DNA of 64,000 bases from contig JAHPZE010000001.1 of assembly GCA_019058365.1 (NCBI GenBank), positions 409,738 to 473,737 on the forward strand, read 5' to 3'. The DNA is from Promethearchaeota archaeon. GTDB taxonomy: Archaea; Asgardarchaeota; Lokiarchaeia; Sigyniarchaeales; SOKP01. The notes beneath the pieces were generated by a model. The model saw only the letters and a program-made list of their open reading frames with translations. It did not search any database and was not told where the DNA came from. A program made the position numbers and the translations under genes. This document shows, one piece after another, positions 8,628 to 57,681 of the stretch (position 1 is its first letter; the number at the start of each line of letters is the position of its first letter).

Positions 8628-8800
8628 AACTTCATTGAAATCAGACTCTCAATTTACCATTTCATATGTATCCTTAGCGATGGGTAATATAAACATATTT
8701 ATAAGTTAAGAAGTAAAAAAAATATGATTTTTTAGATCATTAAAAAACGAATAGATTATGGTATTAAATTGTTTATAACGCGGATCTAGTTTTTTAATTT
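8628..8800 (-). repeat. Degenerate copy of mvhD extreme 3' end plus its 3' flank
   Basis: 8782-8800 ggatctagttttttaattt (reads IKKLDP on minus) vs 17436-17454 ggtcctagttttttaattt; 8723-8758 matches 16039-16074 at 32/36; contains the 22-bp motif at 8637-8658. Confidence 0.7.
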
Positions 8801-14746: not shown

Positions 14747-15033
14747 TATCCTTACAATATTACTATGGTAGTAAAAAATATATCCCACACATAAAATCTC
14801 TTATTATTCTTACTGTTTGATAGCTGGTGTGTAAACATTTCTTAATTTTAACAGCAATTTTTTGTAAAACAATCTTTACCTTTTATTTAATAGTTTTTTC
14901 ATCGTTTTCAACCGATATATTTACCATTTTATACATACGCATAGAGATGGATGAATAATACAAACATATATCAAAGTTAATATATAAAAGAGATGATATT
15001 TTTTAAAACAGTAAATATAAATGAATAATTATT

Positions 15034-15112
15034 TTAAGTTGACCTTAAAGGATCTAGTTCTTTTATTTGGTTAATGAATTCTGCAATACCTTCAGCAAAT
15101 CGTTTTCCTTCA
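15034..15112 (-). pseudogene. Relic of an mvhD 3' end
   Basis: Reads EGKRFAEGIAEFINQIKELDPLRST* vs EGKRFAEVITEFTNEIKKLGPLQVI* of 17420-17851 (16/25 identical, same stop position). Confidence 0.88.
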
Positions 15113-15142
15113 GTTCTTATTAAGATAAAAAAATTTAATATA

Positions 15143-15844: not shown

Positions 15845-16021
15845 TTTTTTCTATTAATTAGATAAAATTTATTTGTTTTGATTTAAATTTGAAAGTTAAA
15901 TATGTGAAATACTCATATTGTCTTAATAAATATTATTAATTCAAATTATAAAAATTTCAAGAGTATAATGAGATCGCTATTAGAATAAGGCATTTTAGCA
16001 TTTTTTGAGAAAATTTCAAAG

Positions 16022-16167
16022 CTAATAAGAAAAAGAGGTATAATTTTTTAAATCATTAAAAAACAAACAGATTAATATGTAATATTGCGTGCAACGGACC
16101 AAGTTTTTTAATTTCATTAGTAAATTCTGTAATAACTTACGCAAATCGCTTCTCTTCAGATGCACTT
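16022..16167 (-). pseudogene. Relic of mvhD 3' end plus 3' flank
   Basis: 16090-16167 aligns ungapped to 17430-17507 at 68/78 nt; reads SASEEKRFA*VITEFTNEIKKLGPL. Confidence 0.93.
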
Positions 16168-17256: not shown

Positions 17257-17419
17257 TGATACAATCAAAATTTATAAAATTAGATTAATTTCTTTGGAAA
17301 TTAGACTCTAAATTTACAAATTCTACAACTATTTTCAGAAACTTGAAGCTAAAATATTTTAATGTTAATAAGAAAATGAAAATGAGATATGATTTTTTAA
17401 TAATTGAAAAATAAATATT

Positions 17420-17851
17420 TTAAATAACTTGCAGTGGTCCTAGTTTTTTAATTTCATTAGTAAATTCAGTGATGACTTCAGCAAATCGCTTCCCTTCAGA
17501 TGCACTTACCCATTCAAGTCTAAATCTTTTTTCAAGATTGAATATTTTTAATATTTCCTTAAAATGTTCAAATCTATCCCTAGCAAACTCATTTCCTTTT
17601 AAGTAATGACAGTCACCGATATGACATCCTGTCACAATGACTCCATCAATACCATCTTTAAAAGCCTCCAAAATAAAAGCGGGATCTACTCTACCAGAGC
17701 ACATCACTCTTACTATCCGAATAGTAGCAGGGTACTGAAAACGAGATACGCCAGCTAAATCTGCCCCAGCATAACTACACCAATTACAACAAAAACATAA
17801 TATATTTGGATGGAAATCTTTTTTATTTACTTTCTTTTTTGACTTAGACAT
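17420..17851 (-). CDS. mvhD: MvhD [2Fe-2S] subunit (Cys form)
   Basis: FCCNWCSYAGADLAG, MCSGRVD, GCHIGDCHY, WVSASEG. Confidence 0.96.
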   Translation of the reverse strand: MSKSKKKVNKKDFHPNILCFCCNWCSYAGADLAGVSRFQYPATIRIVRVMCSGRVDPAFILEAFKDGIDGVIVTGCHIGDCHYLKGNEFARDRFEHFKEILKIFNLEKRFRLEWVSASEGKRFAEVITEFTNEIKKLGPLQVI

Positions 17852-41851: not shown

Positions 41852-42046
41852 GTTCTTTTTTTATTGTTTTCTTTAATGATAAAGAACATTTAAGAATATA
41901 AATATATAAGGAGTTATACTAATTTTTGACTGAATTGATTTTTTTATATTAAAGATTAATAATGTTTTTTTTTAACAATCCATTTTAATTTAGTGATTTT
42001 ACAATCTTTTAATTAAATAGTATAGAAGATTTTATATTAGATTAAT

Positions 42047-43534
42047 ATGACAGAAAATAACTCACAGAAAAACGAAACACAGTATGAGTATTCATTCGAA
42101 TACATTCAGAAGAAGCTAGAAGGCAAAAAAGACAGCTTCGGAATGCTCATGAAAGAGATAGTGCGAACTGGAATATGTACTGAATGTGGTACTTGTGCTG
42201 CGGTATGTCCTGTATTGGAATGGGATGATCTAGCAGGACAGCCAAAATTAATAGGAAAATGTACGGGTTGTGGCATCTGTTATAATCAGTGCCCAAGAAC
42301 TATAACAGATCCTTATCAACTCATGGGAGATTTCAAAACGGGCTACGTAGCAAATACAAACATCCCAGAAGTGATTGGAGGTCAGGATGGAGGAACAGTT
42401 ACAAGTCTACTCTGTTACTTATTTGATGAGCATTTAATCGATGCTGCTGTAGTTACAATGAAAGATCCAAGTAAACCATGGCGTCCAGTAGCGCAAATTA
42501 TAACGAGTAAGGAAGATGCTATTAAAGCTTCGGGTTCTATTTATAGTCATTCTCAAACAGTTGAAGCTCTGATGGATGCTGTACGCCAAGACTTTCGATC
42601 AATTGCATTTGTGGGTACTCCATGTAATATAGATGCTGTTTCTAAAATGTTTGATAGCCCAACGGGTATGTTAAAATATTTTATGCGGTGCCATGTTTTA
42701 AAGATTGGATTGTTCTGTATGGATTCATTTGCTCCTGAGGCTATTTATCCATTCTTTGAGAGTGAAGGGATTGACTTGTCAAAAGTTCAAAAAATGGATA
42801 TAAACAAAGGAAAGTTTCACTTATACTATGATCCACAAGGAGAGCCTTTTAAATCATATACCATTAAGCAATTAGATAAGTTTAAATCATCGAGTTGTAA
42901 TTTTTGTTTAGATCTGACCTCTGAACATGCCGATATTTCTGTGGGCAGTGTAGGTTCTGGAGCAAATAAAAATACAGTATTTGCTAGAAGCGGTATAGGC
43001 GCGGAAATTATGGAAGATGCCGCAGAAAAGGGGTATCTTAAAATTGAGCCTTTTAATGCAATTAATTTGAACGCGGTATTATTTTTAGCAAAACTCAAAA
43101 AAGTATCTCAATATACTGTTCGAAAACGAAAGGTGTTTATTGTAAGAGATGCACCTGAAGAAGAACCAAGGATTGAAACTAAGCCAGAAACAGAACAAGC
43201 TGAAGTAACACCTCCTTTAGGAACTAAAAAATTTCTGAGTGTTTCAAAAGATCTAAATGAAGAAAAGAAAACTGTAAATATTTCACTGACGAATACTATA
43301 GGTTATGTTTTAGAAGATATGAAAATTCGAATAGCAACCGTTGAAGAACTTTTCGAGAAAAAACCTTGGATAACAACTATAACAGAATTATTTCCATTTG
43401 AAACAATCGAAATTGGTTATCCTTTGGAAGGAGAACCTGGTGAGCCTGTTGTAGCTAATGTATTAGTTGAGGTTTCAACGGAAGCGTTTGGGAAAATTTT
43501 TTCTAGAACGCTAAAAGTAGCACCACAAGAATAA
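42047..43534 (+). CDS. FrhB/FdhB-family protein with C-terminal extension
   Basis: Two ferredoxin motifs, QDGGTVT, VGTPC, IGLFCMD, ADISVGSVGS. Confidence 0.88.
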   Translation: MTENNSQKNETQYEYSFEYIQKKLEGKKDSFGMLMKEIVRTGICTECGTCAAVCPVLEWDDLAGQPKLIGKCTGCGICYNQCPRTITDPYQLMGDFKTGYVANTNIPEVIGGQDGGTVTSLLCYLFDEHLIDAAVVTMKDPSKPWRPVAQIITSKEDAIKASGSIYSHSQTVEALMDAVRQDFRSIAFVGTPCNIDAVSKMFDSPTGMLKYFMRCHVLKIGLFCMDSFAPEAIYPFFESEGIDLSKVQKMDINKGKFHLYYDPQGEPFKSYTIKQLDKFKSSSCNFCLDLTSEHADISVGSVGSGANKNTVFARSGIGAEIMEDAAEKGYLKIEPFNAINLNAVLFLAKLKKVSQYTVRKRKVFIVRDAPEEEPRIETKPETEQAEVTPPLGTKKFLSVSKDLNEEKKTVNISLTNTIGYVLEDMKIRIATVEELFEKKPWITTITELFPFETIEIGYPLEGEPGEPVVANVLVEVSTEAFGKIFSRTLKVAPQE

Positions 43535-43612
43535 AAATCTAAATCAAATTTTATTAAAAAAGTTAAATGAAATAAATTATTATAAAAACCATTAAAAAAA
43601 GGAAAGTCAAAA

Positions 43613-44521
43613 ATGAAAATTAGTTTAGTTGGACTAAGTGGATGTGGAAAAACAAGCGTTTATTCTGTTGCCTTTGCTGCAAAACGGCCAGAAGAGACAA
43701 AAGGTCTTGCACCAACAATTCTTTATGAAACAAGAAGACATCCATTCCTTGGTTTACAAGTTGGAATCTTTGATTTCGGGGGGCAAGAGGAATTTCGAAA
43801 AGAATATACTGAAAAGCCAGAAGTCTTTCGCGGAACAGATATTCTTATACCTATAGTCGATTTACATGACCCACATACATTTCAAGAAGCAAAGGATTAT
43901 TTTATAAATCTATTGGATATTTATCGTAAGATGAATGAAAAACCAAAGGTTTTCTTGTTCCTTCATAAGTATGATACTGAAAATTTTCAGAAAGAACTTC
44001 TTGACACAAACGTTAAGAAAGCAAAAGATCTCTTCCTTGATATATTTAAAGACTATGATTTTGACTATATGTTAACAAGTATTTATGAGGAAGACAAATT
44101 AGCAAAGGTATTCAGAGATGTTTTGATATCAGAATATGCTGAATTAAAAACGCATGTAGAAAAAGCAGAAAAACAACTTGATGAAATTAAAGCTAAAGTC
44201 ATTATTGCTGACATTTCGGGTAATGTTATCGTTCATAATGTCCAAGGTGTTAGTAGTGGTTTAACATTAAGGGGAGATTTAAGAGATTTCATTAATGCGT
44301 GTAATACAGTGCGAGAAAATATATTTATGTCAGATTCTGCGAAGTTTGGTGGTCGAGATGGTGATGGAAAGGAAATCGAGCTTCATATTTTTAAATACAT
44401 CATTTCTGTATTGGTAATGAAATCAGGAGCATTGGATAGGGATTCCCAAGACAAACTAAATATGCTGTTAAATGACATGAAGCTTTTTGCTGATTTAATT
44501 ATATCCGCCCATACGGATTAA
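43613..44521 (+). CDS. Rag/Gtr-like small GTPase with C-terminal roadblock-like domain
   Basis: GLSGCGKTS, LAPT, DFGGQ, HKYD (His-type G4), TSIY. Confidence 0.8.
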   Translation: MKISLVGLSGCGKTSVYSVAFAAKRPEETKGLAPTILYETRRHPFLGLQVGIFDFGGQEEFRKEYTEKPEVFRGTDILIPIVDLHDPHTFQEAKDYFINLLDIYRKMNEKPKVFLFLHKYDTENFQKELLDTNVKKAKDLFLDIFKDYDFDYMLTSIYEEDKLAKVFRDVLISEYAELKTHVEKAEKQLDEIKAKVIIADISGNVIVHNVQGVSSGLTLRGDLRDFINACNTVRENIFMSDSAKFGGRDGDGKEIELHIFKYIISVLVMKSGALDRDSQDKLNMLLNDMKLFADLIISAHTD

Positions 44522-44705
44522 TCTTTAAAATAATAATAAATATTATTTTCTTCATATCTTTTTTTAATTCCAAAATTAGTTTAAAATCATTAGTAATAAA
44601 AAAAATTATAATTGAATTTTAAACTATTGGATTGATATAATTTAAAACTTATAAAAGTATATAGATACTAAATTAAATTAAATTTCAAGTAGGAGGTATA
44701 AGATA

Positions 44706-45593
44706 ATGCCGAAGGCTAAATTTAGTAATATGGAAATTGAGTATGACACATTTGGTGATCCCTCGTTAAAACCATTATTATTAATTATGGGACTTGGAGC
44801 ACAAATGATCAATTGGGACGAAGAATTTTGCACAAAGCTTGTAGAACGTGGATTTTATGTGATCAGATTCGATAATCGAGATGTTGGGTTATCCACTAAA
44901 TTCGATGAAGCAGGTGAACCAGATCTTATGAAATTATATGCACAAGTGGCAAAAGGAGAAAAAATTGAAGCGTTTTATACATTAGATGATATGGCTGATG
45001 ATGCAATTGGACTCTTAACTGCAATTAATATTGATAAAGCTCATATCTGTGGGGCATCGATGGGAGGAATGATTGCTCAAACTGTTGCATATAGACACCC
45101 TTCTCATGTTTTATCTCTTATTTCTATTATGAGCAGTACAGGTAATCCCGATTTACCCCGTCCATCACCAGAGGCAATGAAAGTGTTAATTCAGCCTTTA
45201 CCCACTGGACGTGAAGCAATTATAGAGGCTGGTGTGAATAGTATGCGTATCGTTCACGGTACAGGTATTCCTTTTGATGAAAAAAGAGCGCGTAAATTGG
45301 TAATAGCTTCATATGATCGTTCAAATTATCGAGCAGGCTATTCACGTCAATTAGCAGCAATATTGGCTAGTGGCAATCGTAAACAAGCTTTAACATCTGT
45401 AAGAGCCCCTACACTTGTAATTCATGGAGAAGCTGATCCTCTAGTTCCATTTGAAGGGGGAAAAGATACTGCGAAGACAATACCTGGAGCCGAATTATTC
45501 CTTATTAAAGGAATGGGTCATAGTTTACCACCAGAAATTTGGTCAAAAGTACTAGATGCAATTACAAAAAACGCCTCTAAAGCTTATCAATAA
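44706..45593 (+). CDS. Alpha/beta hydrolase
   Basis: FDNRDVGLS, GASMGG, HGEADPLVP, GMGH. Confidence 0.92.
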   Translation: MPKAKFSNMEIEYDTFGDPSLKPLLLIMGLGAQMINWDEEFCTKLVERGFYVIRFDNRDVGLSTKFDEAGEPDLMKLYAQVAKGEKIEAFYTLDDMADDAIGLLTAINIDKAHICGASMGGMIAQTVAYRHPSHVLSLISIMSSTGNPDLPRPSPEAMKVLIQPLPTGREAIIEAGVNSMRIVHGTGIPFDEKRARKLVIASYDRSNYRAGYSRQLAAILASGNRKQALTSVRAPTLVIHGEADPLVPFEGGKDTAKTIPGAELFLIKGMGHSLPPEIWSKVLDAITKNASKAYQ

Positions 45594-45692
45594 AAATGGA
45601 GTTATTCTTTTATATTATTTTTATTTATTTTAATGAAATCATTCAATTCTTATAACTAAAAAACCAGATTTTAATGAAAAGATGTAGTGAGA

Positions 45693-45892
45693 ATGATAAA
45701 CCGGTGTGCATGGGTTGGCACTGATCTGCAGATGAGGGAATATCATGACTTGAATTTATTCGCTGATTTGATTATATCCGTACTTATTGATTATTCTTTG
45801 AATTTATAATAAATATATTTTCGTCATATCTTTTTTACATTTCAAAATTTCAAAAATTCACTTAAAAGCATTTATTGAAGCTATAGTTGAAT
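45693..45892 (+). pseudogene. Chimeric relic: tag 5' end fused to Rag-like GTPase 3' end and flank
   Basis: 45693-45809 reads MINRCAWVGTDLQMREYHD|LNLFADLIISVLIDYSLNL*; cf. tag MVKRCAWVNNDPQMIEYHD and GTPase NDMKLFADLIISAHTD*; DNA similarity continues to match ~44520-44617. Confidence 0.9.
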
Positions 45893-46065
45893 GATTAGCA
45901 AGAATTTATTAAGGATTATATCATAAAAACACTTATTCCATTAATTATAAAATTGCTATATAGTTTTCTTTCTTGTATTAATAGTAGAATAATGGTTCTA
46001 TTGAATCTTGATATTGTTGTAATTCTAGTAATAAAAATCTTTTAAAATGAGAAATATAAGAGAAT

Positions 46066-46632
46066 TTGTCTATGGTAAAAATAAAAGCTGAAACGAAACT
46101 TAAGGTAGGTATAATCCTTCTTATAGTGGGTTTGATATTTGCTCCTATTGTTTCTATCTCCACCATGACATTAGTCTTATTACCTATTCCCGTTATTCTA
46201 ATACCTTTAGGATTGATTATCTTCTATAGAGGTTTATCAATTCAGAATAGAGGGATAATGTTAATAATTATAGGTGGAATTTTCATTACTTTATCAACAT
46301 TAACAATTAATAATGCGTTACGATTATATAGAGAACCAATATTAGCTCTATCAACTATAAATATTATATTCTGGGTTCTATGCTTTGTAGTCCCCGGTGT
46401 GGTAAAAATAACGAAGAAAATAGAATTTGATGAGAAGACTACTTACTTATATATGTTAGCTCCACTAACTACTTTTTGGTTACTTATTTATACAATAGTC
46501 ATTGCAGGCATAGCATCTAGTGCACCGGCTACATTCGCATCTTTATATTCTCAGTATTTTATTATAGCGGTGGGTGGTGGATTTTTATTAAGTCTCATCA
46601 TTGTCGGTATTTCATATTTAAGATATTATTAG
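46066..46632 (+). CDS. Multi-pass membrane protein
   Basis: About 6 hydrophobic helices. Confidence 0.75.
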   Translation: MSMVKIKAETKLKVGIILLIVGLIFAPIVSISTMTLVLLPIPVILIPLGLIIFYRGLSIQNRGIMLIIIGGIFITLSTLTINNALRLYREPILALSTINIIFWVLCFVVPGVVKITKKIEFDEKTTYLYMLAPLTTFWLLIYTIVIAGIASSAPATFASLYSQYFIIAVGGGFLLSLIIVGISYLRYY

Positions 46633-46762
46633 ATACCCAAAATAAAGCATAAATTAGTTCCTAATAATATAAGAAGTTTCCCTTAAATTAAAAAGGATTG
46701 AAAATTATAATTCAGACTTTGATAATAAATAATTTATTTGATATTTACCAATTATAAATAAA

Positions 46763-47344
46763 ATGGTAAAACGGTGTGCGTGGGTTAATAACGACCCACA
46801 GATGATAGAATATCATGATAAAGAGTGGGGTACTCCTATTCATGATGATCGGCTTCTTTTTGAATTTTTAATATTGGAGGGGGCTCAAGCGGGTTTAAGT
46901 TGGAGTAGGATATTACGAAAGCGTGAGAATTTCAGAAACGCATTTGATAATTTTGAGTATTATAAAATTGCGAAATACAATGAGCAGAATATTGAGAAAT
47001 TAATGAATAATGAAGGTATTATAAGAAATAGACATAAAATTGAAGCGGTAATTGCAAACGCTAGGGCATTATTAAAAGTTCAAAAGGAATTCGGTTCCTT
47101 TGATAAATACATCTGGAAATTTGTTAATTATAAATCAATTGATAATAAATTCAAAGAGCTTTCAGAATTACCATCTAAAACCGAGTACTCAGAACAAATG
47201 AGTAAAGATTTGAAAAAAAGAGGGTTTAAATTTATTGGTCCAACTATTTGTTATGCGTTTATACAAGCAGTTGGAATGGTAAATGATCATATGATCGATT
47301 GTTTTCGATATAATGAAATAAATCAAATTATAAGTAATAAATAG
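46763..47344 (+). CDS. tag: DNA-3-methyladenine glycosylase I
   Basis: RCAW, YHDKEWG, EGAQAGLSW, IIRNR, GMVNDH..DC. Confidence 0.96.
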   Translation: MVKRCAWVNNDPQMIEYHDKEWGTPIHDDRLLFEFLILEGAQAGLSWSRILRKRENFRNAFDNFEYYKIAKYNEQNIEKLMNNEGIIRNRHKIEAVIANARALLKVQKEFGSFDKYIWKFVNYKSIDNKFKELSELPSKTEYSEQMSKDLKKRGFKFIGPTICYAFIQAVGMVNDHMIDCFRYNEINQIISNK

Positions 47345-48548: not shown

Positions 48549-49760
48549 TTGGTAAAATTAGAGTTAACTGATTTGAACAATGGTGCTGTCTTTATCGGGG
48601 ATAAGTTAAATGTTCGCACTAAATTCAATTTTGATAAAAAAGCTGAAATTTTCTGGAGTGGAATTCATTTAATTACTCATCCTCCTTGTGCTAAAGAACT
48701 TCAAATTTCAAAAGAGGAAATATTTAGTAAAGGCAAATTTGAACCAGGTGAATATGTTCGTGAAAAATCTCTCTTAATTAAAAGTAATTTTGTCCCAACG
48801 ATAAGAAATAGAAATCTAAATTATACTCTAAAATTAAATTTAAGACAACCTAATCCAATTAATCCTGAAGATGAGTTAGTGATTAATAAAACTCATAATA
48901 TTGAGATTAACGCAAGAAATTCTGGATTTCAAGCAAAATCCCCAAAACCAATCTCATTTTCAATTTCGGGATTAAACATTCTTTTAACAAAAGATATATT
49001 TAAACCAGGAGAAACTATTAAAATCGGTTATACTTCAGAGGAACTTAAACAGCTAGAAATAAGACTTCTTCAAAATTCAAATTTGGTTTGTTATTGTGAA
49101 GCATATGGTCAAAATTGTCGTAAAGTTGAGGAACTTCCCCCAGCAATTGCAGGAGATGTTCGAACACAAAATTTTGAAAAAGATTACATGCTTCTAAAAG
49201 TTCCAGAAGTTGCTGAACTAACTTATAATTGGTTATGGTCTCCTTCTGAAAAAGAACAATTTGGATTTAGATATGGAGCTTATACAAAGTGGAGCTTGTT
49301 AATCATTGGAAAGAAGAAACCAGAATTTGGATTAGAACCAATAAAACTTGAAATTCCAATAACTATTTCTAGTGGTCCGATTTCTGAAGAAAAGGTAGGT
49401 GTGGATCTATTTTCAGAAAGTTCTGCTGCCGCATCTTCCTTATTTGATGGTATTTCAAAATTCCAGAAGATCTATAAAGTAATCTCAATTGATTCTGATA
49501 TTGAGAAATATATAATAAGAATAAAAAATATTTCCAAAAATGATTTAAAAGGAGTAACTGTCGTGATTTCGGGGTTACAAGAAGGTTTATTCGAAACTGC
49601 TTCACAATTAACAGGTTTAAATACTTGGAAAAAGGGTGAAGAAAAAGAAATCGTTTATGAAACAAAACAAAATATTACCGCACTCATCTCAATTTTAGAA
49701 GATAATAGTCAACAGAAAATTAGGATTCAATCACCAGTCTCAGAAGCAAGCTTCTTTTAA
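48549..49760 (+). CDS. Beta-sandwich protein, possibly arrestin/Vps26-like
   Basis: Tandem beta-rich domains, FKPGETI, LEIPITI; fold is inferred. Confidence 0.55.
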   Translation: MVKLELTDLNNGAVFIGDKLNVRTKFNFDKKAEIFWSGIHLITHPPCAKELQISKEEIFSKGKFEPGEYVREKSLLIKSNFVPTIRNRNLNYTLKLNLRQPNPINPEDELVINKTHNIEINARNSGFQAKSPKPISFSISGLNILLTKDIFKPGETIKIGYTSEELKQLEIRLLQNSNLVCYCEAYGQNCRKVEELPPAIAGDVRTQNFEKDYMLLKVPEVAELTYNWLWSPSEKEQFGFRYGAYTKWSLLIIGKKKPEFGLEPIKLEIPITISSGPISEEKVGVDLFSESSAAASSLFDGISKFQKIYKVISIDSDIEKYIIRIKNISKNDLKGVTVVISGLQEGLFETASQLTGLNTWKKGEEKEIVYETKQNITALISILEDNSQQKIRIQSPVSEASFF

Positions 49761-49782
49761 ACATATGCTAAGCATATGTATA

Positions 49783-50376
49783 TTAATTCATAGCAGTAAT
49801 CAGTTTATTATCATAATATTTATTTAAGACTAGCCTTAAAATATCTTCAAAACAATCCAAGATTCCTTCTCCTTTTATCGCACTTGTAAATCTTGTATCT
49901 ATGTTTTTGTATTTAGAGTATTCGATATCTCTTAAGAAATCTATTGAGTTAAATTTATCTTCTAGATCTTGTTTATTAAATGCAATGATGATCGGAAGAT
50001 TACTTATATTTTCATTAAAATATGAGATTAATTCTTGCCAAGAGATTAAATTTCTGTCATATACCTCTTCATGAGAATCTATGACAAAAATGACTCCATC
50101 AACAGCTCTTAAAGTAATGGGTCTAGTAACAAAATAGAAATCTTGTCCCGTAGTAGTATATATATGGATTTTTAATGCCCATTCTTGATTTTGAAATGTA
50201 ACTGTCCCATAATCAAAAAATAGTGTTCTATTTACAGTACTCTCAATACTATAAACATCTTTACCCTTACCAAAATGAGAAAACAAAGCCTTAATAGACG
50301 TTGTTTTTCCACTTAGAGCGGGTCCAAAATACACAATTTTAATACTTATAGTCTTGTCACAGTGATCGATAATCAA
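49783..50376 (-). CDS. MglA-like small GTPase (likely TTG start at 50376)
   Basis: KIVYFGPALSGKTT, RTLFFD, YTTTGQ, NKQD, SAIKG. Confidence 0.85.
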   Translation of the reverse strand: MIIDHCDKTISIKIVYFGPALSGKTTSIKALFSHFGKGKDVYSIESTVNRTLFFDYGTVTFQNQEWALKIHIYTTTGQDFYFVTRPITLRAVDGVIFVIDSHEEVYDRNLISWQELISYFNENISNLPIIIAFNKQDLEDKFNSIDFLRDIEYSKYKNIDTRFTSAIKGEGILDCFEDILRLVLNKYYDNKLITAMN

Positions 50377-50513
50377 TATTAAACCAACGCAATATATGTT
50401 TAATTGATAATTCAAAAATAAATTTAAAAAAACCAATATTTTTTTTATTTCATTTATAAGAAAAGTGTCAATTCTAATTTCCTTTTAAAAAAGAAAGAGG
50501 ATTAAAATCTTTA

Positions 50514-51056
50514 TTACAAAGTTTTGAATTTTAAATATAATTGCTCTATAATTGCATTGAATGCCTCAACTACTCCCTGACCTGTTTTTGCTGACGTAAA
50601 AAAGAAATTTAAAAAATTATGTTCATTAACAAGTTTTTGGATTTTTGTTGTATCTAAACTATTTTCATCCACTAAATCAACTTTATTAGCAAATAAAACA
50701 ATGGGAATATTTCCGCAATTTTTTTCTACTACTTCATACCAGTTCTTTATATGTGTAAAGCTATTTTCACCAAGTTCATTTTCTTCAAGACTATATACAA
50801 TTATTGCTGCTCTAGCCTCTTTATAAAACAGGTGATGTAGAAAATTGAAATCATCTTGACCTGCTATATCCCAGAATAATAAACTAACCATATCTCCATT
50901 AAATTCTTTGTTATATTTTGAAAATTGAGCTCCAATGGTTTTTACATAATCCTTTTCAAAGATACCCTTTGTGAAATTTTTAATTAAGGATGTTTTACCT
51001 ACTGCTCCATCTCCAACAACAACTATCTTAAATCGAAATTCCTCAAAATTCTTCAT
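50514..51056 (-). CDS. Rab-like small GTPase
   Basis: GDGAVGKTS, TIG, WDIAGQ, NKVD, TSAKTG; no C-terminal prenylation Cys. Confidence 0.92.
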   Translation of the reverse strand: MKNFEEFRFKIVVVGDGAVGKTSLIKNFTKGIFEKDYVKTIGAQFSKYNKEFNGDMVSLLFWDIAGQDDFNFLHHLFYKEARAAIIVYSLEENELGENSFTHIKNWYEVVEKNCGNIPIVLFANKVDLVDENSLDTTKIQKLVNEHNFLNFFFTSAKTGQGVVEAFNAIIEQLYLKFKTL

Positions 51057-51162
51057 TAGGTTTCTAAATTATAGTCAATTTATAATTTTTTTCTAATGTA
51101 AGATTAGGATTAGTTTAATATAAAATTTTAGGGATTTGGAGAGTTTGAATAATACAATTCTA

Positions 51163-53106
51163 CTAAATATTTTTCTTAGTAAAAATCTCTGTCACGATGG
51201 ATTCCAGCGATGGAATATCGTTTATTTGAATAGATTTACTCTTTTGTAAAAAATTCTGTAAAGATTCCCAAATAAAACTATCATTTTGAATAGAATTAAG
51301 AAAGTTTTTAATCTTATAGTAAGCATAGTATGAAGCCCCTTTAAAAATATAACAAATTAAAAATGGTTGAAGGGGCATCATAAGAAGAGTGTATTGACCA
51401 AAAACTGCCCTATCAAGCCCCTCAGAAAATACTTCACTAATTATATAATTTATTGTGGTTAGAAAGCCTCCTAAAATATCATCTTCGAAGGAAAAATCCT
51501 CTCTAAATTTTTTAGAGAATAATATATTACCCCCCTCAGTTAAGATTAATAGCATAACAGGGTCTTCTTTTGATATCTTTGGAATTTCTAATGACCGTTT
51601 TTTTAACATAGTTGTCATCTGATCATCTAATCGGGCTAATTCAATGCGCTCCGCCAGACTTGCTTTTGATTCATTCAATAAATCCCAGTTATGCAATTCT
51701 TTTAATAAATTATCATGTTCATTTGAGATTTTCATCGCCAATCGTTTTATGCCATATGATTCCGCTATTTTCTGAGCTTGAGTTAAAAGTCGTCGGGCTA
51801 CTTTTATATTAAAAGTTAATAAAGCCAATTTAGCTTGCAAAATGAAGGTCTCACAAAAAACAAGGTATGAATGGGATTTTTCAGCTATAGCTATTAATTG
51901 AATAATATTCTGATTGATTTCATCAAAAACTTCATCATTATTACTTATACGATATTCTGAGAGAAGTAAATCACAAAGATGGATATATGCGCTTAAAATT
52001 AGAGTAAAATATATGGTTTTAGTTCGAACAACTTGTTTAAATAATTTTTCAGCTTTAGCTTTATCTCGGATTCGCGAACTTCTTTCTAATATTAAAGCTT
52101 TAGAGTAAATATAATCTAGTTCGATATGTTCTTCTTTATTTTGGTTACATATATTTTCCAAATGATGGAAATATTTTTTCGCAAGTTCAATATCACCCTT
52201 TATAAGGGCAATTTCTATTAAACTAGATAGTGGAGCTGCTATTGGTACAGATTGTTTTTTTTCACTGAGTAATAAACACTCCTCCAAATTTTTCAAAGCG
52301 AGCTCATATTCACCTTTTTCACAATATATAAGTCCGATGTTATTCAAGAAAACTGCATCTAAATAAAAGCTATGAAACCCTTTCACTTTTTCTAAAGCTT
52401 TCATATAATGTTTTAAACAATTATCTAAATCTCCAATAGAACCATAAACAGATGCAGAATAACCGTGACATATAACAATCCAGTAATGGTTAAATTTAAT
52501 TTCCTTAGCGTTTGATAATGCTTTCTCGAAATAGTTCAACGAAATTTCCGTATTTTTTTTTAAAAAAAATTCAATTAGTCCTTTTAATAAATAAAGCCAA
52601 ACAATTTCGAAAGAATTAGGGAGTTCTTGATATAGATCAAAGATCCGTTCTAAACCCTTTTCTGCTAAATCTATATTAGTCAATAAAAAATTAATCCATG
52701 CTTTTAACAAATCTAAACGAACTCTTCTTCGAATTAAAACATTCTTAGGTTCATTAGAAATAAGTTTTATTATATCTTCAGCTTTACTAATCTTTTTGGA
52801 TGCTTCGTCAATTTTTTCGGCTTCTATAAATCCAAAAATAATAAAAAATATTCCATCAAACGATTGGAGATGTTTGTTGTTTTTTTTTCCTTCTTTAAAT
52901 AGTTCTTTACCCAACTCAATAAGGTCTTCGAATTTGTGTTGATATGCCAGAATCAACCCTTTAATAAATTGGTAATAGCTTATTTGTTGAGGATTAAGCC
53001 CTTCAAATTGTTTCCAATCATTTAATATTTCAAGAGCCTTTTCAAGCTCACCTTCATCAAAAAGTTCTTCCGCTCTTGTTAGTTGATTTAGCTTAGGATG
53101 AGACAT
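51163..53106 (-). CDS. TPR protein with C-terminal longin-like domain
   Basis: LNNIGLIY..KGEYELA TPR; LLILTEGG..LFS..F...LGGFL tail. Confidence 0.82.
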   Translation of the reverse strand: MSHPKLNQLTRAEELFDEGELEKALEILNDWKQFEGLNPQQISYYQFIKGLILAYQHKFEDLIELGKELFKEGKKNNKHLQSFDGIFFIIFGFIEAEKIDEASKKISKAEDIIKLISNEPKNVLIRRRVRLDLLKAWINFLLTNIDLAEKGLERIFDLYQELPNSFEIVWLYLLKGLIEFFLKKNTEISLNYFEKALSNAKEIKFNHYWIVICHGYSASVYGSIGDLDNCLKHYMKALEKVKGFHSFYLDAVFLNNIGLIYCEKGEYELALKNLEECLLLSEKKQSVPIAAPLSSLIEIALIKGDIELAKKYFHHLENICNQNKEEHIELDYIYSKALILERSSRIRDKAKAEKLFKQVVRTKTIYFTLILSAYIHLCDLLLSEYRISNNDEVFDEINQNIIQLIAIAEKSHSYLVFCETFILQAKLALLTFNIKVARRLLTQAQKIAESYGIKRLAMKISNEHDNLLKELHNWDLLNESKASLAERIELARLDDQMTTMLKKRSLEIPKISKEDPVMLLILTEGGNILFSKKFREDFSFEDDILGGFLTTINYIISEVFSEGLDRAVFGQYTLLMMPLQPFLICYIFKGASYYAYYKIKNFLNSIQNDSFIWESLQNFLQKSKSIQINDIPSLESIVTEIFTKKNI

Positions 53107-53260
53107 AAATTTGTGAGAATTGAATTATAAACCTATGAATACATAAGCCAATTATAGTTTTAAATCTAGTGTTTAATTCCGTTGAAAAAAGACAGAGTAT
53201 TTTCTATAAAAAAGGTTTTAAAAAAAAAAATTTAATTTAGAAATTATTCATTTTTTGCAT

Positions 53261-53656
53261 TTAGCTTCTCTGTTTGATATAAGTGACAATTCCAAGCGCT
53301 AAAAGTACAGCCTCTACGGTTATAGTAAATAAACCATTTAATTTCCACAAATCTCCAAAAGTGGAGTATAATGTAGCATATACAGAAACCTCAATGATTA
53401 ATGATATTATAATTAGCCCTATAAAATACTCAAATGTCAATTTAATTTCTTCCCATTCCTTTTTGCGAAGCATTAAAATTGCGAAAATGGCAGAGATTAA
53501 ATTAACTCCTCCAAACAGTCTTGGGAGATACGGATTTGTCCAACCCTCAGGATTCAATGTCATATCATATAGAAAGGTAAGCATGATCCCAAATAGGAAC
53601 CATATAATGGTATCCACTATAAGTGCGATTTTTGTAAGTTTTTTAATTTCGGTCAT
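53261..53656 (-). CDS. Small 4-TM membrane protein
   Basis: Hydrophobic pattern. Confidence 0.8.
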   Translation of the reverse strand: MTEIKKLTKIALIVDTIIWFLFGIMLTFLYDMTLNPEGWTNPYLPRLFGGVNLISAIFAILMLRKKEWEEIKLTFEYFIGLIIISLIIEVSVYATLYSTFGDLWKLNGLFTITVEAVLLALGIVTYIKQRS

Positions 53657-53780
53657 TTTTTTATCAACTCATTTTTTTTTTTATTCTCTCATTAAACTGA
53701 TAAACAATGTGGTTTTTTAAAAAAAAAAAAATTTTAGAAAATATTTTTTATCTGAAATGATCAACGATGTGTGTTAGGAC

Positions 53781-54521
53781 CTATATTCCCCAAGAATATG
53801 TCAAAGAGGATATAGGACCAATCGGCAATATACCATCTCCAAACCCTACATCACCAGGGATGCCAACATCACATAATGCCGCAACTAGGACCCATGGTCC
53901 TTCTGGGTCAATAAAAACATCAGGATATCCTCCTGGGGGATATGTACCGGGATCCTCTAAACAATATTCAGCTGTAGGGCTCAAAAACATTAACATCGGT
54001 GCTGATACGTATTCACCTTCAGTATTTGGCATGGTAATTGGAAACATATTTCGATATATTAAACTTAAATCGGTATCAGTAGTCTTAAACACTCCCTCAC
54101 CCATGACCATCCAAACGTGAATCACCCAGGCATTGGAGATTGGGCAAAAGAAGTAAAAATCGGTTGATAGAACTAATCCATCTTTGAGCATTCCTGTCAT
54201 CGTATACACGTTATTACCTGATTCATCATAAATTCTTTGATAGAAAGCTGCTTTCACCGATGGGGGCTCATCGCCTTTATTAATACTCCCTATGATAATA
54301 TTAGTCGTTCCATCTAGATCTAAATCATCTCCTATTGCAATGAATAATACGCGATTAGAGCCACAAGCGTTTACTGTTGTAAGAAGTGCTATAATCGTTA
54401 TTAAAAATGTTACGGCGAACAGTCCTTTAGTCACATTTGATTTCTTTTTCACTATCATTTTTTTTTTATTCAACTCTTTTTTTTGTTTTAAATCGAATTT
54501 TATCATCAAAATGATGATCAA
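53781..54521 (-). CDS. Secreted/anchored hypothetical protein (true start probably ~54458)
   Basis: MIVKKK, hydrophobic signal, VNAC; Pro/Gly-rich C-terminus. Confidence 0.72.
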   Translation of the reverse strand: MIIILMIKFDLKQKKELNKKKMIVKKKSNVTKGLFAVTFLITIIALLTTVNACGSNRVLFIAIGDDLDLDGTTNIIIGSINKGDEPPSVKAAFYQRIYDESGNNVYTMTGMLKDGLVLSTDFYFFCPISNAWVIHVWMVMGEGVFKTTDTDLSLIYRNMFPITMPNTEGEYVSAPMLMFLSPTAEYCLEDPGTYPPGGYPDVFIDPEGPWVLVAALCDVGIPGDVGFGDGILPIGPISSLTYSWGI

Positions 54522-54551
54522 TTAATTGTACACCTATCCATCCATATATAG

Positions 54552-54595
54552 TTCCACTTTCGGAAATTCCTTGAAAATTCCGAAAATATGTGGAA
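54552..54595. promoter_or_regulatory. Nested inverted repeat between divergent genes, putative operator
   Basis: TTCCAC-TTTCGGAA ... TTCCGAAA-ATAT-GTGGAA. Confidence 0.55.
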
Positions 54596-54670
54596 GTTTT
54601 GAAAAATAAATATAAATAGAAATGTTCCCAATTTATACCTATTGAATAAAAAGTTTTATTTTTTTAGATA

Positions 54671-56584
54671 ATGGGAAAACTAAATTATCCCTCTGACGAG
54701 ATTCTTAACCCCTCAAAACAGTTAAGAAAAAATTACGACCATATAATTCTTTGGATGTTAGCAAATAATGAAAGTTGTGAATGGTCTAATTTTGAACAAA
54801 AGCCAGTTGAAATTCCTATTTCCACATTATCGCGTCATTTCACAAAGTTAATTCTCAAAGGATACATAGAAAAGTATTTGCGAGGACAATATAGGATAAC
54901 TCCAGAAGGAAAAAAGAGATTTCATGAGTTATCGAAAGAAAAAAAAAAACAACGAAAATTAAGTTATCCCCCTAATGTAATCTTAAAAAGAGGAAGGAAT
55001 TATTCTCATTGGATTTTATGGATGATTTATAATAATGGTTTTTGCAAAAGATCTGATTTTCTAGAAGAGCCATTCTCTATAAATCAATCTTCATTATCAA
55101 AAAGCTTAAATTCGTTAATTCAAAAGGGTTATCTCATCAAAGAAAATAAAAGATATATAATTACTCAGGCAGGGAAATCAGAATATTCGAAGATTCTGCT
55201 AAATTATAACTTAGACAGACAAATAATTTTAGAAGAGGAGCGAAAACGAATAGATAAAATTACCACCAAGACATCAGAGTTTTTTGGTAAATTCAATATA
55301 ACTGATGATCATGTTAAATTTAGGTTTCTCAATATGGTTTTAAAATTAGATTATTCAGAAGTTAAGGCAATCTTAAAAGAAGAGGAGGATTTTTATAAGA
55401 TATTACTCTTTATTTCAATAAATCATCCCGATTTTTATCCTGACTATCTATCTTTTGAAGAATTTTCGAGATTTTATGAAATAGAAAAGAGAATTCTAAA
55501 CTTTTGGGTAAATGAGATTATATATAGCGATTTATATAACTTAAAGTTTTTTAATTTAGAGATTTCTTCTAATAAATATTATTATTTTCATTCTGGTGAA
55601 AAATTAGAGAAAATACTTCGAGCAATTACTGAAGAACACATTGCAACAAACAAATATTTGGAGAAATTTGGGAGGTCAGGGAGCCTAAATTCTATTATAG
55701 ATAATATTCTTGAAGAACTTTGTGAAAATATATTCAATAAAGATTTCAAGGAATCCTTGAGAGAACTTTTACCAAAATATATCAAATATCTGGCATATAA
55801 AATTGAGATAAAAAAAGAATTAACAGAGACATATGATAAGCTAGAAGGTATAATTTGGCAGAACATGACAGATATTATTCAATCACAGAGTTTTGAAACA
55901 TTAAAATGTCAATACGAAGAAAAAATTAAAGAAATTGACAAAGAAATCAACTTGAGCCCAAAAAATTATGAATTATATAATTCAAAGATTAGAACTCTGC
56001 TCTATTTTAACCAATACAATGATGTATTGATGGTATTAGAAAAAATGATGGAGCTATTTCCTGAGAATGAAATTGATATTATGATAAAAAAAGCATTTAC
56101 TCTTAAAAAAGATAAAAATTTAGAAGCGGGATTAGAAACTATTGAAAATTTATTAGAAAAATACCCAAAAGATAATTCTCTTCATAATTATAAGGCGTAT
56201 TGGTTGTCTTATCTGGGTAGAAAACAAGAAGCATTGGAGATTCTTCAGGATCTTGTAGAAAAGGAACCAGAAAAGGGACTTTATTACGATACGTACGGAG
56301 AAATCTTAATAACCTTTAAAGAGTACAAAAAAGCTATAGAAGAATTTCAAAAAGCAATAAAAATTGATCCAAATGAGTGGTTCATCCACCAGACTTATAT
56401 CAAAATTGGTATTTGTTATACAGCACTCGAAAATTTTAAATTAGCAATTCAGAATCTTAAGAGAGGAAAAGAATTAACAAGTAAAATTATAAGTGATATA
56501 GAATCAAAAAATAAATGGTTAGCAATTGTAGACCTTTTTCTTGCAGAGATAGAGGAACAAGGTTATTTATTAGATTCAATTTAA
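54671..56584 (+). CDS. Regulator with two winged-helix domains and TPRs
   Basis: STLSRH..L..KGYIEK...YRITPEGK and SSLSKSL..L..KGYL...YIITQAGK; C-terminal TPRs. Confidence 0.82.
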   Translation: MGKLNYPSDEILNPSKQLRKNYDHIILWMLANNESCEWSNFEQKPVEIPISTLSRHFTKLILKGYIEKYLRGQYRITPEGKKRFHELSKEKKKQRKLSYPPNVILKRGRNYSHWILWMIYNNGFCKRSDFLEEPFSINQSSLSKSLNSLIQKGYLIKENKRYIITQAGKSEYSKILLNYNLDRQIILEEERKRIDKITTKTSEFFGKFNITDDHVKFRFLNMVLKLDYSEVKAILKEEEDFYKILLFISINHPDFYPDYLSFEEFSRFYEIEKRILNFWVNEIIYSDLYNLKFFNLEISSNKYYYFHSGEKLEKILRAITEEHIATNKYLEKFGRSGSLNSIIDNILEELCENIFNKDFKESLRELLPKYIKYLAYKIEIKKELTETYDKLEGIIWQNMTDIIQSQSFETLKCQYEEKIKEIDKEINLSPKNYELYNSKIRTLLYFNQYNDVLMVLEKMMELFPENEIDIMIKKAFTLKKDKNLEAGLETIENLLEKYPKDNSLHNYKAYWLSYLGRKQEALEILQDLVEKEPEKGLYYDTYGEILITFKEYKKAIEEFQKAIKIDPNEWFIHQTYIKIGICYTALENFKLAIQNLKRGKELTSKIISDIESKNKWLAIVDLFLAEIEEQGYLLDSI

Positions 56585-56676
56585 TACTCTTAGGCTTTAA
56601 TTAGCTATTCTATAGATTCTTGGTTAAAAAAGCTATGAATTTTTTTATCTAATTATCTTATTTATAAAAAATTTTC

Positions 56677-57681
56677 CTATTTTTCAGGAATCAGAAGGAC
56701 GAAATTACTTCCTTTGGAATAATCTCCTTTAATCCTATCTTCCACCCAAATTTTACCATTATAAGAATCAACTACTTTTTTTATGAGAGATAAGCCTAAA
56801 CCCGTTCTAAATTTATTTTCCTCTTCTTCACGTGCAATAAAAATTTCTTCTTTTCTGTCATCTGAAATTCCAACTCCATTATCAATAAACTCAATTTTAA
56901 TATATTGGGTTTGATTGAGTTTAAATTTTGATGTTTTTATCTTGACTTCAATAGGGGCATTTTTATTATGTATTATTGCATTAACCAGGATATTTTCAAA
57001 TACATTATAAAGTAAATCATTTGAGTTTAACAATAAAGTTTGTTCTGGGATTTGAATTATAATATTTCTATGTTCATATAATTTTTTCACCTTTTCAACC
57101 GTTTTTTCAAGAATACTTTTAAGATCTACGGTGTGAATTGGAAAAGGTGATTTCCTTATTTCAGAGAGTTTGGTAACGTTTGAGATCAAATTTTCTCCTC
57201 TTATTACTTGTTCTTTAATTAATGTAAGAATCTCGGAAAGATTCTCTAATTTCTGCTGAGTATTATGAGATTGCTCAATAATGTTATTACCTAATAGGAT
57301 ATTTTGTAATATATTTCTAATATCGTGAGTAAATAAATCTTTATAAAATTCTGTGTACCTATATGCTTCTTCTATATCTTTTTGATTCTCTCGTAAATTT
57401 TTTTCATTATTTTTCTGAATAAATGTATATAAAAAAAAAAACCAAGCTAAAGGAGCAAACGTTGCTATGTAATCTTCAACATTCACTAAAATATCGCTAA
57501 TTCCAGACCACTCTAAGAAATTACTTAAATAATAGACGGAAATAATGAACATCATTGCTATAAGAGATAATCTAGTGATAATTGAAAATTGATTTTTCCA
57601 ACCAATTAAAATAATACTAAGTGATAAGAGAGTTAAAGTGAACACAAAGAAATCAATTATCCCTATTAAATTCATGAACAC
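56677..57681 (-). CDS. Membrane sensor histidine kinase
   Basis: HDIRN, ENILVNA, DNGVGI, GLGL. Confidence 0.92.
   Translation of the reverse strand: MFMNLIGIIDFFVFTLTLLSLSIILIGWKNQFSIITRLSLIAMMFIISVYYLSNFLEWSGISDILVNVEDYIATFAPLAWFFFLYTFIQKNNEKNLRENQKDIEEAYRYTEFYKDLFTHDIRNILQNILLGNNIIEQSHNTQQKLENLSEILTLIKEQVIRGENLISNVTKLSEIRKSPFPIHTVDLKSILEKTVEKVKKLYEHRNIIIQIPEQTLLLNSNDLLYNVFENILVNAIIHNKNAPIEVKIKTSKFKLNQTQYIKIEFIDNGVGISDDRKEEIFIAREEEENKFRTGLGLSLIKKVVDSYNGKIWVEDRIKGDYSKGSNFVLLIPEK

What the first reader, a model, noticed from the sequence alone, without database searches (positions are those of the whole stretch)
44472..46820. Duplicated gene slot with an in-frame chimera of both flanking genes
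Seen: GTPase 3' end - hydrolase - [tag 5' end | GTPase 3' end + flank] - membrane gene - intact tag. The relic joins at shared ATGA(C) and stays in frame (38 aa); both halves are diverged from the resident genes. Inference: this is what integration of a circle [GTPase end - cargo - tag start] from a related strain would leave, so two alternative cargos now sit in tandem. It independently echoes the mvhD array and points to a general homology-anchored, microhomology-closed route of gene acquisition.
Basis: partly seen in the sequence, partly recalled or inferred. Interest (0 to 1): 0.72.

Follow-up and report, generated by a model that had tools for sequence, protein, structure and literature searches.

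The report
Recombination scar between two stacked cargo genes
A 157-base dead patch, made of the start of the DNA-repair gene tag fused to the tail of a Rag-like GTPase gene, marks where two alternative versions of a small variable gene slot were joined side by side in a Loki-type Asgard archaeon. It is real and inherited, but it is an example of a known kind of recombination event.

Summary
At 45693-45849 a tag 5' fragment (57 nt, 77% identical to the resident gene) is joined at ATGA(C) to a copy of the GTPase 3' end plus flank (105 nt, about 82%). Profile searches give E = 7e-12 and 1.5e-8.

It is not an assembly artefact. Two independent metagenome contigs carry the same junction. The copies decay at a neutral rate, and the 38-aa chimeric ORF has a stop codon in one lineage.

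The left half lies in its original place. The closest relative, G046 (GTPase-hydrolase-tag), is collinear with the window up to the junction. Across 42 lineages of the genus the GTPase-tag gap is empty or holds members of at least 11 cargo families (13 ORF clusters), either singly or stacked.

Best reading: two slot alleles were stacked by one microhomology join plus one homologous exchange. This could be homology-facilitated illegitimate recombination or integration of a circle; I could not tell which. I also could not tell which cargo arrived second. No membrane-gene-only allele was found.

The genome holds two more two-gene-end scars. This scan has already found the same kind of scar in several bacteria and in a Thorarchaeote. 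I rate it a new member of a known kind, of moderate interest.

The parts
43613..44521 (+). Left anchor gene: Gtr1/RagA-like small GTPase (302 aa), conserved at 85-99% aa across the genus
   Evidence: Pfam PF04670 E 4e-24; orthologues in relatives
44472..44577 (+). Resident source of the right half of the relic: last 50 nt of the GTPase plus 56 nt of T-rich downstream flank
   Evidence: Alignments
44706..45593 (+). Cargo 1: alpha/beta hydrolase (295 aa). Cargo family F1, present in 24 of 42 lineages
   Evidence: Pfam PF00561 E 4.5e-21; slot table
45594..45692 (+). Hydrolase-to-tag spacer of the original hydrolase-tag arrangement, orthologous to the G046 spacer
   Evidence: One collinear block, WIN 41956-45755 against G046, 91.4%; alignment
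45693..45747 (+). Relic, left half: tag codons 1-19, decayed, still in its original position after the hydrolase
   Evidence: 44/57 nt to 46763-46819; nhmmer E 6.9e-12; shares G046-specific bases in its first 24 nt
45743..45748 (+). Junction: ATGA(C) microhomology shared by tag nt 51-54 and the GTPase 49 nt before its stop
   Evidence: Three-way display; same junction in L081 and L082
45744..45849 (+). Relic, right half: last 49 nt of a GTPase gene (stop mutated to TAT) plus 56 nt of its downstream flank
   Evidence: 86/105 nt to 44472-44577, z 27; nhmmer E 1.5e-8
45693..45809 (+). Incidental chimeric ORF of 38 aa (40 aa if counted from GTG 45687)
   Evidence: TAG at codon 7 in L081; divergence of 9-22% between lineages
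45850..46065 (+). Sequence upstream of the membrane gene, part of the cargo-2 cassette. No homology to the GTPase-hydrolase spacer
46066..46632 (+). Cargo 2: 188-aa membrane protein (family F4), no Pfam or PADLOC match. Found in the same slot only in G008 and two JGI contigs, always stacked behind the hydrolase; a 47%-identical homologue lies on another contig of G001
46718..46762 (+). 45 nt upstream of tag, of the type seen where the hydrolase is not tag's neighbour (G041, G049)
46763..47344 (+). Right anchor gene: intact tag (3-methyladenine DNA glycosylase I). After about nt 90 it is closest to the G066 and G046 types
   Evidence: Pfam PF03352 E 3e-85; sliding-window identity

Best explanation
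The relic is a dead recombination scar that records the stacking of two alternative alleles of one variable gene slot.

One parent had GTPase-hydrolase-tag. The other had GTPase-membrane gene-tag. DNA from a related strain was joined to the chromosome by two events:
- one illegitimate join at the 4-5 nt microhomology ATGA(C), between tag nt 51-55 and the GTPase 49 nt before its stop;
- one ordinary homologous exchange in the shared flanking gene.

The product is GTPase-hydrolase-[tag start | GTPase end + flank]-membrane gene-tag. No recombinase or mobile element is involved.

Shown: the junction, the two contexts it joins, its inheritance and its neutral decay.

Inferred: the two-parent history. 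Either a linear fragment (homology-facilitated illegitimate recombination) or a circle closed at ATGA and integrated by a single crossover gives this product. The direction is unresolved. I slightly favour the membrane gene as the incomer, with the homologous exchange between tag nt 26 and about nt 90.
For: 1. Both halves are significant, and the junction shows microhomology.
2. The closest relative, G046, is GTPase-hydrolase-tag. It is collinear with the window in one 91.4% block that runs through the hydrolase, the spacer and the tag-start relic and stops at the junction (alignment).
3. To the right of the junction the sequence equals the GTPase end plus flank of the WIN/G046/G041/G049 type (82-84%), followed by an 860-nt cassette. 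The 45 nt upstream of tag then match the G041/G049 type, whose slots are empty or hold another cargo.
4. Across 42 lineages the slot is empty in 7. It holds the hydrolase alone in 11, single cargos of six other families in others, and in 15 lineages stacks such as F5+F1, F1+F2, F1+F7+F11 and F5+F1+F3. Alternative alleles and stacked forms therefore co-exist (Pfam).
5. Two independent JGI contigs carry the same arrangement and junction.
6. No integrase, terminal inverted repeats or RNA family was found, and synteny outside the slot is unbroken.
7. In this genome, intergenic copies of the ends of nearby genes are almost all in direct orientation: 54 direct against 1 inverted at E<1e-6. Two more scars join the ends of both flanking genes at 2-4 nt microhomologies, on C7 and C12, and their cargo has no integrase.
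8. Relatives show independent scars: a tag-start relic in G063 (E 7e-6) and a 41-nt copy of the GTPase flank between two cargos in G066.
Against: - No GTPase-membrane gene-tag allele was found in 54 species genomes or in the JGI scan.
- G008 has hydrolase-membrane gene-tag with no detectable scar.
- Apart from this stack, only G066 among the other stacked arrangements shows a scar (a flank copy), so most stacks may arise differently or their scars have decayed.
- The GTPase-end relic carries about 17% changes of its own, even in the three-lineage consensus. It is not clearly closer to any sampled lineage, so no donor can be named.
- The age is poorly bounded. It lies between the split of the three scar-bearing lineages and roughly the split from G008.
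- DNA uptake and recombination have not been studied experimentally in these archaea.
Confidence: 0.7

Rival explanations
1. Intragenomic tandem duplication. The segment from the GTPase end to the tag start was duplicated by microhomology-mediated illegitimate recombination or template switching. One copy's cargo was later replaced or lost: either the second hydrolase was swapped for the membrane gene by ordinary allele replacement, or there were reciprocal losses from a hydrolase-plus-membrane-gene ancestor like G008.
For: A [segment end | segment start] junction at a microhomology is the classic mark of a tandem duplication. G008 shows that hydrolase-membrane gene-tag exists without a scar. 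The membrane gene differs between the window and G008 about as much as the flanking genes do (4-fold sites 0.51 against 0.41-0.58). The final structure is the same as in the best explanation.
Against: It needs two or three events instead of one. The copy to the left of the junction shows no trace of the membrane gene and is collinear with G046. The copy to the right shows no trace of the hydrolase. In L081 the scar's GTPase end is of a different type (74%) from that lineage's own GTPase flank. A 1.2-kb tandem repeat would collapse quickly.
Confidence: 0.2
2. Assembly chimera. Two strain variants of the slot were wrongly joined in the metagenome-assembled genome.
For: The genome is a 54-contig MAG with 6.6% estimated contamination.
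Against: The same junction is present in two independent JGI contigs that differ from the window by about 9%. A 4-5 nt overlap cannot join assembly paths. Both halves are decayed, with conserved residues changed and the stop codon lost, unlike a live gene from another strain.
Confidence: 0.01
3. The chimeric 38-aa ORF is a functional new small protein, kept because it is in frame.
For: It is open in the window and in L082, and it retains tag's original upstream region and start codon.
Against: L081 has TAG at codon 7. Conserved Tag and GTPase residues are replaced. Between the three lineages the relic differs by 9-22%, as spacers do, against 5-7% for the live tag start.
Confidence: 0.03
4. Site-specific insertion of a mobile cassette (integron-like or integrase-borne) that carries copies of the target gene ends as its attachment site.
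For: Cassettes of many families occupy one slot with a fairly constant order, and the left boundary is about 56-66 nt after the GTPase stop for both cargos.
Against: There is no integrase or transposase in or beside the slot. No attC-like or terminal inverted repeats were found, and no Rfam match. The duplicated pieces are 77-83% identical rather than sharing an exact core. The constant boundary is also explained by selection to keep the GTPase terminator region.
Confidence: 0.04

Closest known systems
Homology-facilitated illegitimate recombination (HFIR), described in naturally competent bacteria and, at low frequency, in E. coli conjugation (PMC3240628, citing the original work on naturally competent species)
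   Same: One end of the incoming DNA is fixed by homology and the other is joined illegitimately. Foreign genes are added without a recombinase, and part of the target can be duplicated.
   Different: Here it is inferred from a fossil scar in an uncultured Asgard archaeon, with no experiment and no known DNA-uptake route. The 'foreign' end is itself a piece of the other flanking gene, so two slot alleles become stacked.
Single crossover of a circularised fragment, giving a duplication of the homologous segment (observed as the main product in PMC3240628)
   Same: It produces a direct duplication of the homologous region on either side of the added DNA.
   Different: The circle would have had to close at ATGA and then cross over within only 55 nt of tag start or 105 nt of GTPase end plus flank, both diverged. 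This is not distinguishable here from the linear route.
Displacement arrays: orphan immunity genes and orphan 3' ends at T6SS and Rhs loci (Kirchberger et al. 2017, PMC5361080)
   Same: Successive alleles of a variable locus pile up next to a conserved anchor, leave gene-end relics, and are then spread by ordinary homologous recombination. HFIR is proposed there as the mechanism.
   Different: Those arrays concern toxin and immunity modules and displace a gene's variable 3' part. Here unrelated small accessory genes sit between two intact housekeeping genes, and the scar contains the ends of both.
Scars of the same architecture found earlier by this scan in other genomes (e1-3830828, e1-5273021, e1-2934930, e1-1114758, and e1-5383698 in a Thorarchaeote)
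   Same: Ends of both flanking genes are joined at a microhomology between two stacked cargo cassettes, with no integrase.
   Different: This one is in a Loki-type (Promethearchaeota) genome and has a very short microhomology. It comes with population evidence from three scar-bearing lineages and a slot catalogue across 42 lineages. Those notes were not re-tested here.

Membership tests
HFIR / insertion-duplication scar | A novel junction between two sequences that share only a few bases (microhomology) | tested here: met
   ATGA(C) is shared by tag nt 51-55 and the GTPase at -49. The junction is identical in three lineages.
HFIR / insertion-duplication scar | The other side of the inserted DNA merges with the recipient by homology, with no second junction | tested here: met
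   The intact tag is seamless. Its upstream 45 nt are of the G041/G049 type and its body after about nt 90 is of the G046/G066 type. The GTPase side is equally seamless.
HFIR / insertion-duplication scar | Donor and recipient were different genomes carrying different DNA at the locus | tested here: inconclusive
   Hydrolase-only alleles are found (G046 and 10 others). A membrane-gene-only allele is not found. The donor lineage cannot be identified.
HFIR / insertion-duplication scar | No dependence on a site-specific recombinase or transposase | tested here: met
   No such gene lies in the slot or its neighbours, and there are no terminal repeats. Synteny outside the slot is intact.
HFIR / insertion-duplication scar | Uptake of donor DNA and RecA/RadA-dependent anchoring shown experimentally | not testable with these tools
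   The organism is uncultured and no genetic system exists.
Simple tandem duplication | The two copies on either side of the junction carry the same content | tested here: not met
   The left copy holds an alpha/beta hydrolase and the right copy an unrelated membrane protein. Outside the 105-nt and 57-nt pieces there is no similarity.
Integron or other site-specific cassette system | An integrase gene and conserved recombination sites at cassette ends | tested here: not met
   Pfam scans of the slot genes and cargo families find none. Only AT-rich chance inverted repeats are present, and Rfam finds nothing.

The most novel reading that the evidence does not exclude
Loki-type Asgard archaea routinely gain genes at conserved inter-gene slots by integrase-free stacking of alleles from related strains. 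The signs are at least three two-gene-end scars and some fifty direct-orientation gene-end relics in this one genome, and a slot with 11 or more cargo families across the genus. That would imply frequent inter-strain DNA exchange combined with microhomology end-joining in the closest prokaryotic relatives of eukaryotes, as a main driver of their large accessory genomes.
Probability: 0.3. Interest if true: 0.55.

Novelty: new member of a known kind. Interest (0 to 1): 0.36.

Why it matters
The scar gives a dated, sequence-level record of how an uncultured Asgard archaeon adds a gene without any mobile element. Alternative alleles of a small slot are exchanged by homologous recombination between related lineages, and now and then they are stacked by a sloppy join.

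Together with the mosaic divergence of neighbouring genes, it indicates active recombination within a Lokiarchaeial species complex. The full text of the open literature searched here holds no paper that mentions both Asgard archaea and illegitimate recombination.

It also warns annotators that short in-frame ORFs of this type are scars, not genes. The mechanism itself is not new.

Tried and rejected
- A whole-genome self-blastn with 13-nt words and dust masking missed the relic. It was replaced by a search of each intergenic region with 7-nt words.
- The G008 hydrolase-membrane gene spacer could not be aligned with the window, and nhmmer found no scar in it.
- A weak GTPase-end-like stretch after the hydrolase of G017 (z 6.8) was not confirmed by nhmmer and was dropped.
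- Naming the donor from the relic, or from the three-lineage consensus of the relic, failed. All near types lie at 80-83%.
- Placing the right-hand crossover was only possible to between tag nt 26 and about nt 90. This does not separate the circle model from the linear model.
- Rfam, PADLOC and the inverted-repeat search gave nothing.
- The idea that the in-frame ORF is selected was rejected.
Full report
**What is there**

The region holds five genes:
- a Gtr1/RagA-like small GTPase (43613-44521; PF04670, E 4e-24);
- an alpha/beta hydrolase (44706-45593);
- a 473-nt spacer;
- a 188-aa multi-pass membrane protein with no Pfam or PADLOC match (46066-46632);
- Tag, the 3-methyladenine DNA glycosylase I (46763-47344).

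FrhB lies upstream. A HAD hydrolase and a 403-aa protein lie downstream.

- Inside the spacer, 45693-45749 matches the first 57 nt of tag at 44/57.
- 45744-45849 matches the last 50 nt of the GTPase plus the next 56 nt at 86/105.
- Profiles built from the 39 genus sequences find both pieces: E 6.9e-12 for the tag start, including about 25 nt upstream of the ATG, and E 1.5e-8 for the GTPase end.
- The GTPase piece scores z = 27 against shuffles.
- The two pieces overlap in ATGA(C).
- The frame runs on for 38 codons.

**It is real and inherited**

A scan of JGI metagenome contigs with the membrane protein found two contigs, Ga0307426_1000207 and Ga0307378_10002316. Both have the order GTPase-hydrolase-relic-membrane gene-tag and are about 91% identical to the window across the region.

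Both carry the same junction. They read ACATGAA just after the join, as the live GTPase does, so the T at 45749 is a later change in the window.

Between the three lineages the relic differs by 9-22%, like the spacers. The live tag start differs by only 5-7%.

In one contig the chimeric ORF has a TAG at codon 7. In all three, conserved residues of both parent proteins are replaced and the GTPase stop has become TAT.

So the relic is a decaying scar. It is neither an assembly join nor a selected small gene.

**What the junction joins**

The closest species genome, G046, has GTPase-hydrolase-tag. It aligns with the window in one block of 91.4% from FrhB through the hydrolase and the 100-nt spacer into the tag-start relic, and the block ends at the junction. 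The relic shares G046-specific bases in its first 24 nt. The left half is therefore the start of a tag gene still in its original place behind the hydrolase.

To the right of the junction, the sequence is a GTPase end plus flank of the type shared by the window, G046, G041 and G049 (82-84%; 53-77% for the rest of the genus). An 860-nt stretch holding the membrane gene follows. The 45 nt upstream of tag then match G041 and G049, where the hydrolase is not tag's neighbour. G041, with a 137-nt gap, looks like the empty site.

**The slot**

I compared 40 species of the genus and the two contigs.
- The gap between the GTPase and tag is 86-137 nt and empty in 7 lineages.
- It holds the hydrolase alone in 11.
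- In others it holds a single cargo of another family: small membrane proteins, DUF3795, a flavodoxin-like protein or a DUF2283 gene.
- It holds stacks in 15. A Peptidase_M50 protein and a DUF2283/DUF4258 pair occur only in stacks. Examples of stacks are F5+F1, F1+F2, F1+F8, F1+F7+F11, F5+F1+F3 and F10/F9+F1.

The exception is the membrane gene of this window (F4), which is seen only stacked behind the hydrolase: in the window, in the two contigs, and in G008 at 67% identity with no visible scar.

Two relatives carry independent scars:
- G063 has a degraded tag start just upstream of its tag (E 7e-6).
- G066 has a 41-nt copy of the GTPase flank between two cargos.

The other stacks show no scar.

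**Mosaic history**

At 4-fold degenerate sites the window, the two contigs, G046 and G066 differ by about 0.2-0.3, but with changing partners from gene to gene. For example, the 403-aa gene gives 0.07 for window against L081 and 0.26 against G046. The hydrolase of G066 stands out at 0.39. The membrane gene gives only 0.08-0.11 among its three carriers. This fits frequent homologous exchange within a species complex. It also means that the age and the direction of the stacking event cannot be read off cleanly.

The relic's GTPase piece has about 17% changes of its own, even in the three-lineage consensus. So the event is either older than the split from G046, which would then have lost the insert, or the donor was already diverged.

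**Mechanism**

The product requires one illegitimate join at ATGA(C) and one homologous exchange. Three routes fit:
- a linear fragment anchored in tag, with its GTPase-end terminus joined into the recipient's tag start;
- the mirror image, anchored in the GTPase;
- a circle closed at ATGA and integrated by a single crossover.

The literature describes both the linear route and the circle route; in E. coli the circle route, which yields duplications, was the commoner product (PMC3240628).

The intact tag differs from the recipient type at nt 9, 18 and 25-26 and returns to the G046/G066 type by about nt 90. A crossover inside the first 55 nt, which a circle integrating through its tag homology needs, is therefore possible but would rest on very short, diverged homology.

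A tandem duplication followed by cargo replacement gives the same end state with more steps. I keep it at about 0.2.

No integrase, att-like repeat or RNA family is present.

**Generality**

I compared each of the 2469 intergenic regions of the genome with its 6-kb surroundings. After leaving out one giant tandem array, this gave 34 copies of nearby gene 3' ends and 20 of 5' ends in direct orientation at E<1e-6, against 1 in inverted orientation.

Exactly three regions hold abutting relics of both flanking genes: this one, and two others.
- C7 150768-151135: a DUF362-gene end joined to an HpaB-gene end at AC(G). It lies between a 154-aa gene and a TldD/PmbA pair.
- C12 89450-89769: a SIR2-gene start joined to an MFS-gene end. 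It is followed by a Ras-like GTPase, a metallo-beta-lactamase-fold gene and a 3-hydroxyacyl-CoA dehydrogenase.

Neither of these has an integrase among the cargo genes scanned.

My gene calls were crude (ORFs of 100 aa or more), so some 'relics' may be small paralogues. The direct-orientation excess and the three chimeras are the robust part.

**Comparison with what is known**

The architecture matches HFIR-type scars and the displacement arrays of T6SS and Rhs loci (PMC5361080). This scan has found the same kind of scar before in several bacteria and in a Thorarchaeote; I did not re-test those notes. No paper in the searched library mentions both Asgard archaea and illegitimate recombination.

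**Verdict**

- The finding is a new member of a known kind.
- Interest is moderate.

Noticed in passing
G000 contig C7 150768-151135 (locus L083 2769-3136): A second chimeric scar in the same genome. A 3' end copy of a DUF362/ferredoxin gene (78%, 191 nt) abuts a 3' end copy of an HpaB-like gene (83%, 181 nt) at an AC(G) microhomology. It lies between a 154-aa gene and a TldD/PmbA pair.
   Followed up: partly
G000 contig C12 89450-89769 and 92810-92873 (locus L084): A third chimeric scar. The 5' end of a SIR2 gene (84%, about 250 nt) is joined to the 3' end of an MFS transporter gene (82%, 78 nt). It is followed by a 3-kb cargo (Ras-like GTPase, metallo-beta-lactamase fold, 3-hydroxyacyl-CoA dehydrogenase) and another short copy of the MFS gene end and flank.
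   Followed up: partly
G000 contig C34 294019-294199 / 299011-299197 and contig C46 75565-75689 / 76653-76777: The junction region of two neighbouring genes (187 nt at 78% and 125 nt at 86%) is repeated directly on both sides of a 4.8-kb and a 1-kb insert. This looks like a Campbell-type integration or a long target duplication. The cargo was not examined.
   Followed up: no
window 8697-8780, 15010-15121, 16013-16167, 17396-17507: Serial direct copies (64-79%) of one gene's 3' end and flank. They were seen in the repeat search and in the genome-wide scan but not analysed.
   Followed up: partly
G000 contig C24 about 49200-57200: An 8-kb tandem array with a period of about 75-77 nt and roughly 100 copies at 70-76% identity. 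It starts inside a 106-aa ORF. It dominated the raw relic scan and was excluded.
   Followed up: no
G006 C1:1905196-1905774 (locus L073): A relative with a closed genome has a second full tag gene (83% aa) next to a fragment of the hydrolase (aa 189-295). It lies 80 kb from the normal slot and in opposite orientation, so a piece of the slot has been copied elsewhere.
   Followed up: no
G046 between tag and the HAD gene (L076/L049); also G008, G009, G016, G024, G045: The gap between tag and the downstream HAD hydrolase gene also varies by 0.3-1.7 kb among species. It may be a second variable slot right next to the first.
   Followed up: no
window 44522-44577 and its orthologues: The 56-66 nt after the GTPase stop (a T-rich motif ...TTCTTCATATCTTTTTTT...) stays about 90% identical between species whose 4-fold sites differ by about 0.5. 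It is probably a terminator or regulatory element. It also forms the common left boundary of both cargo cassettes.
   Followed up: partly
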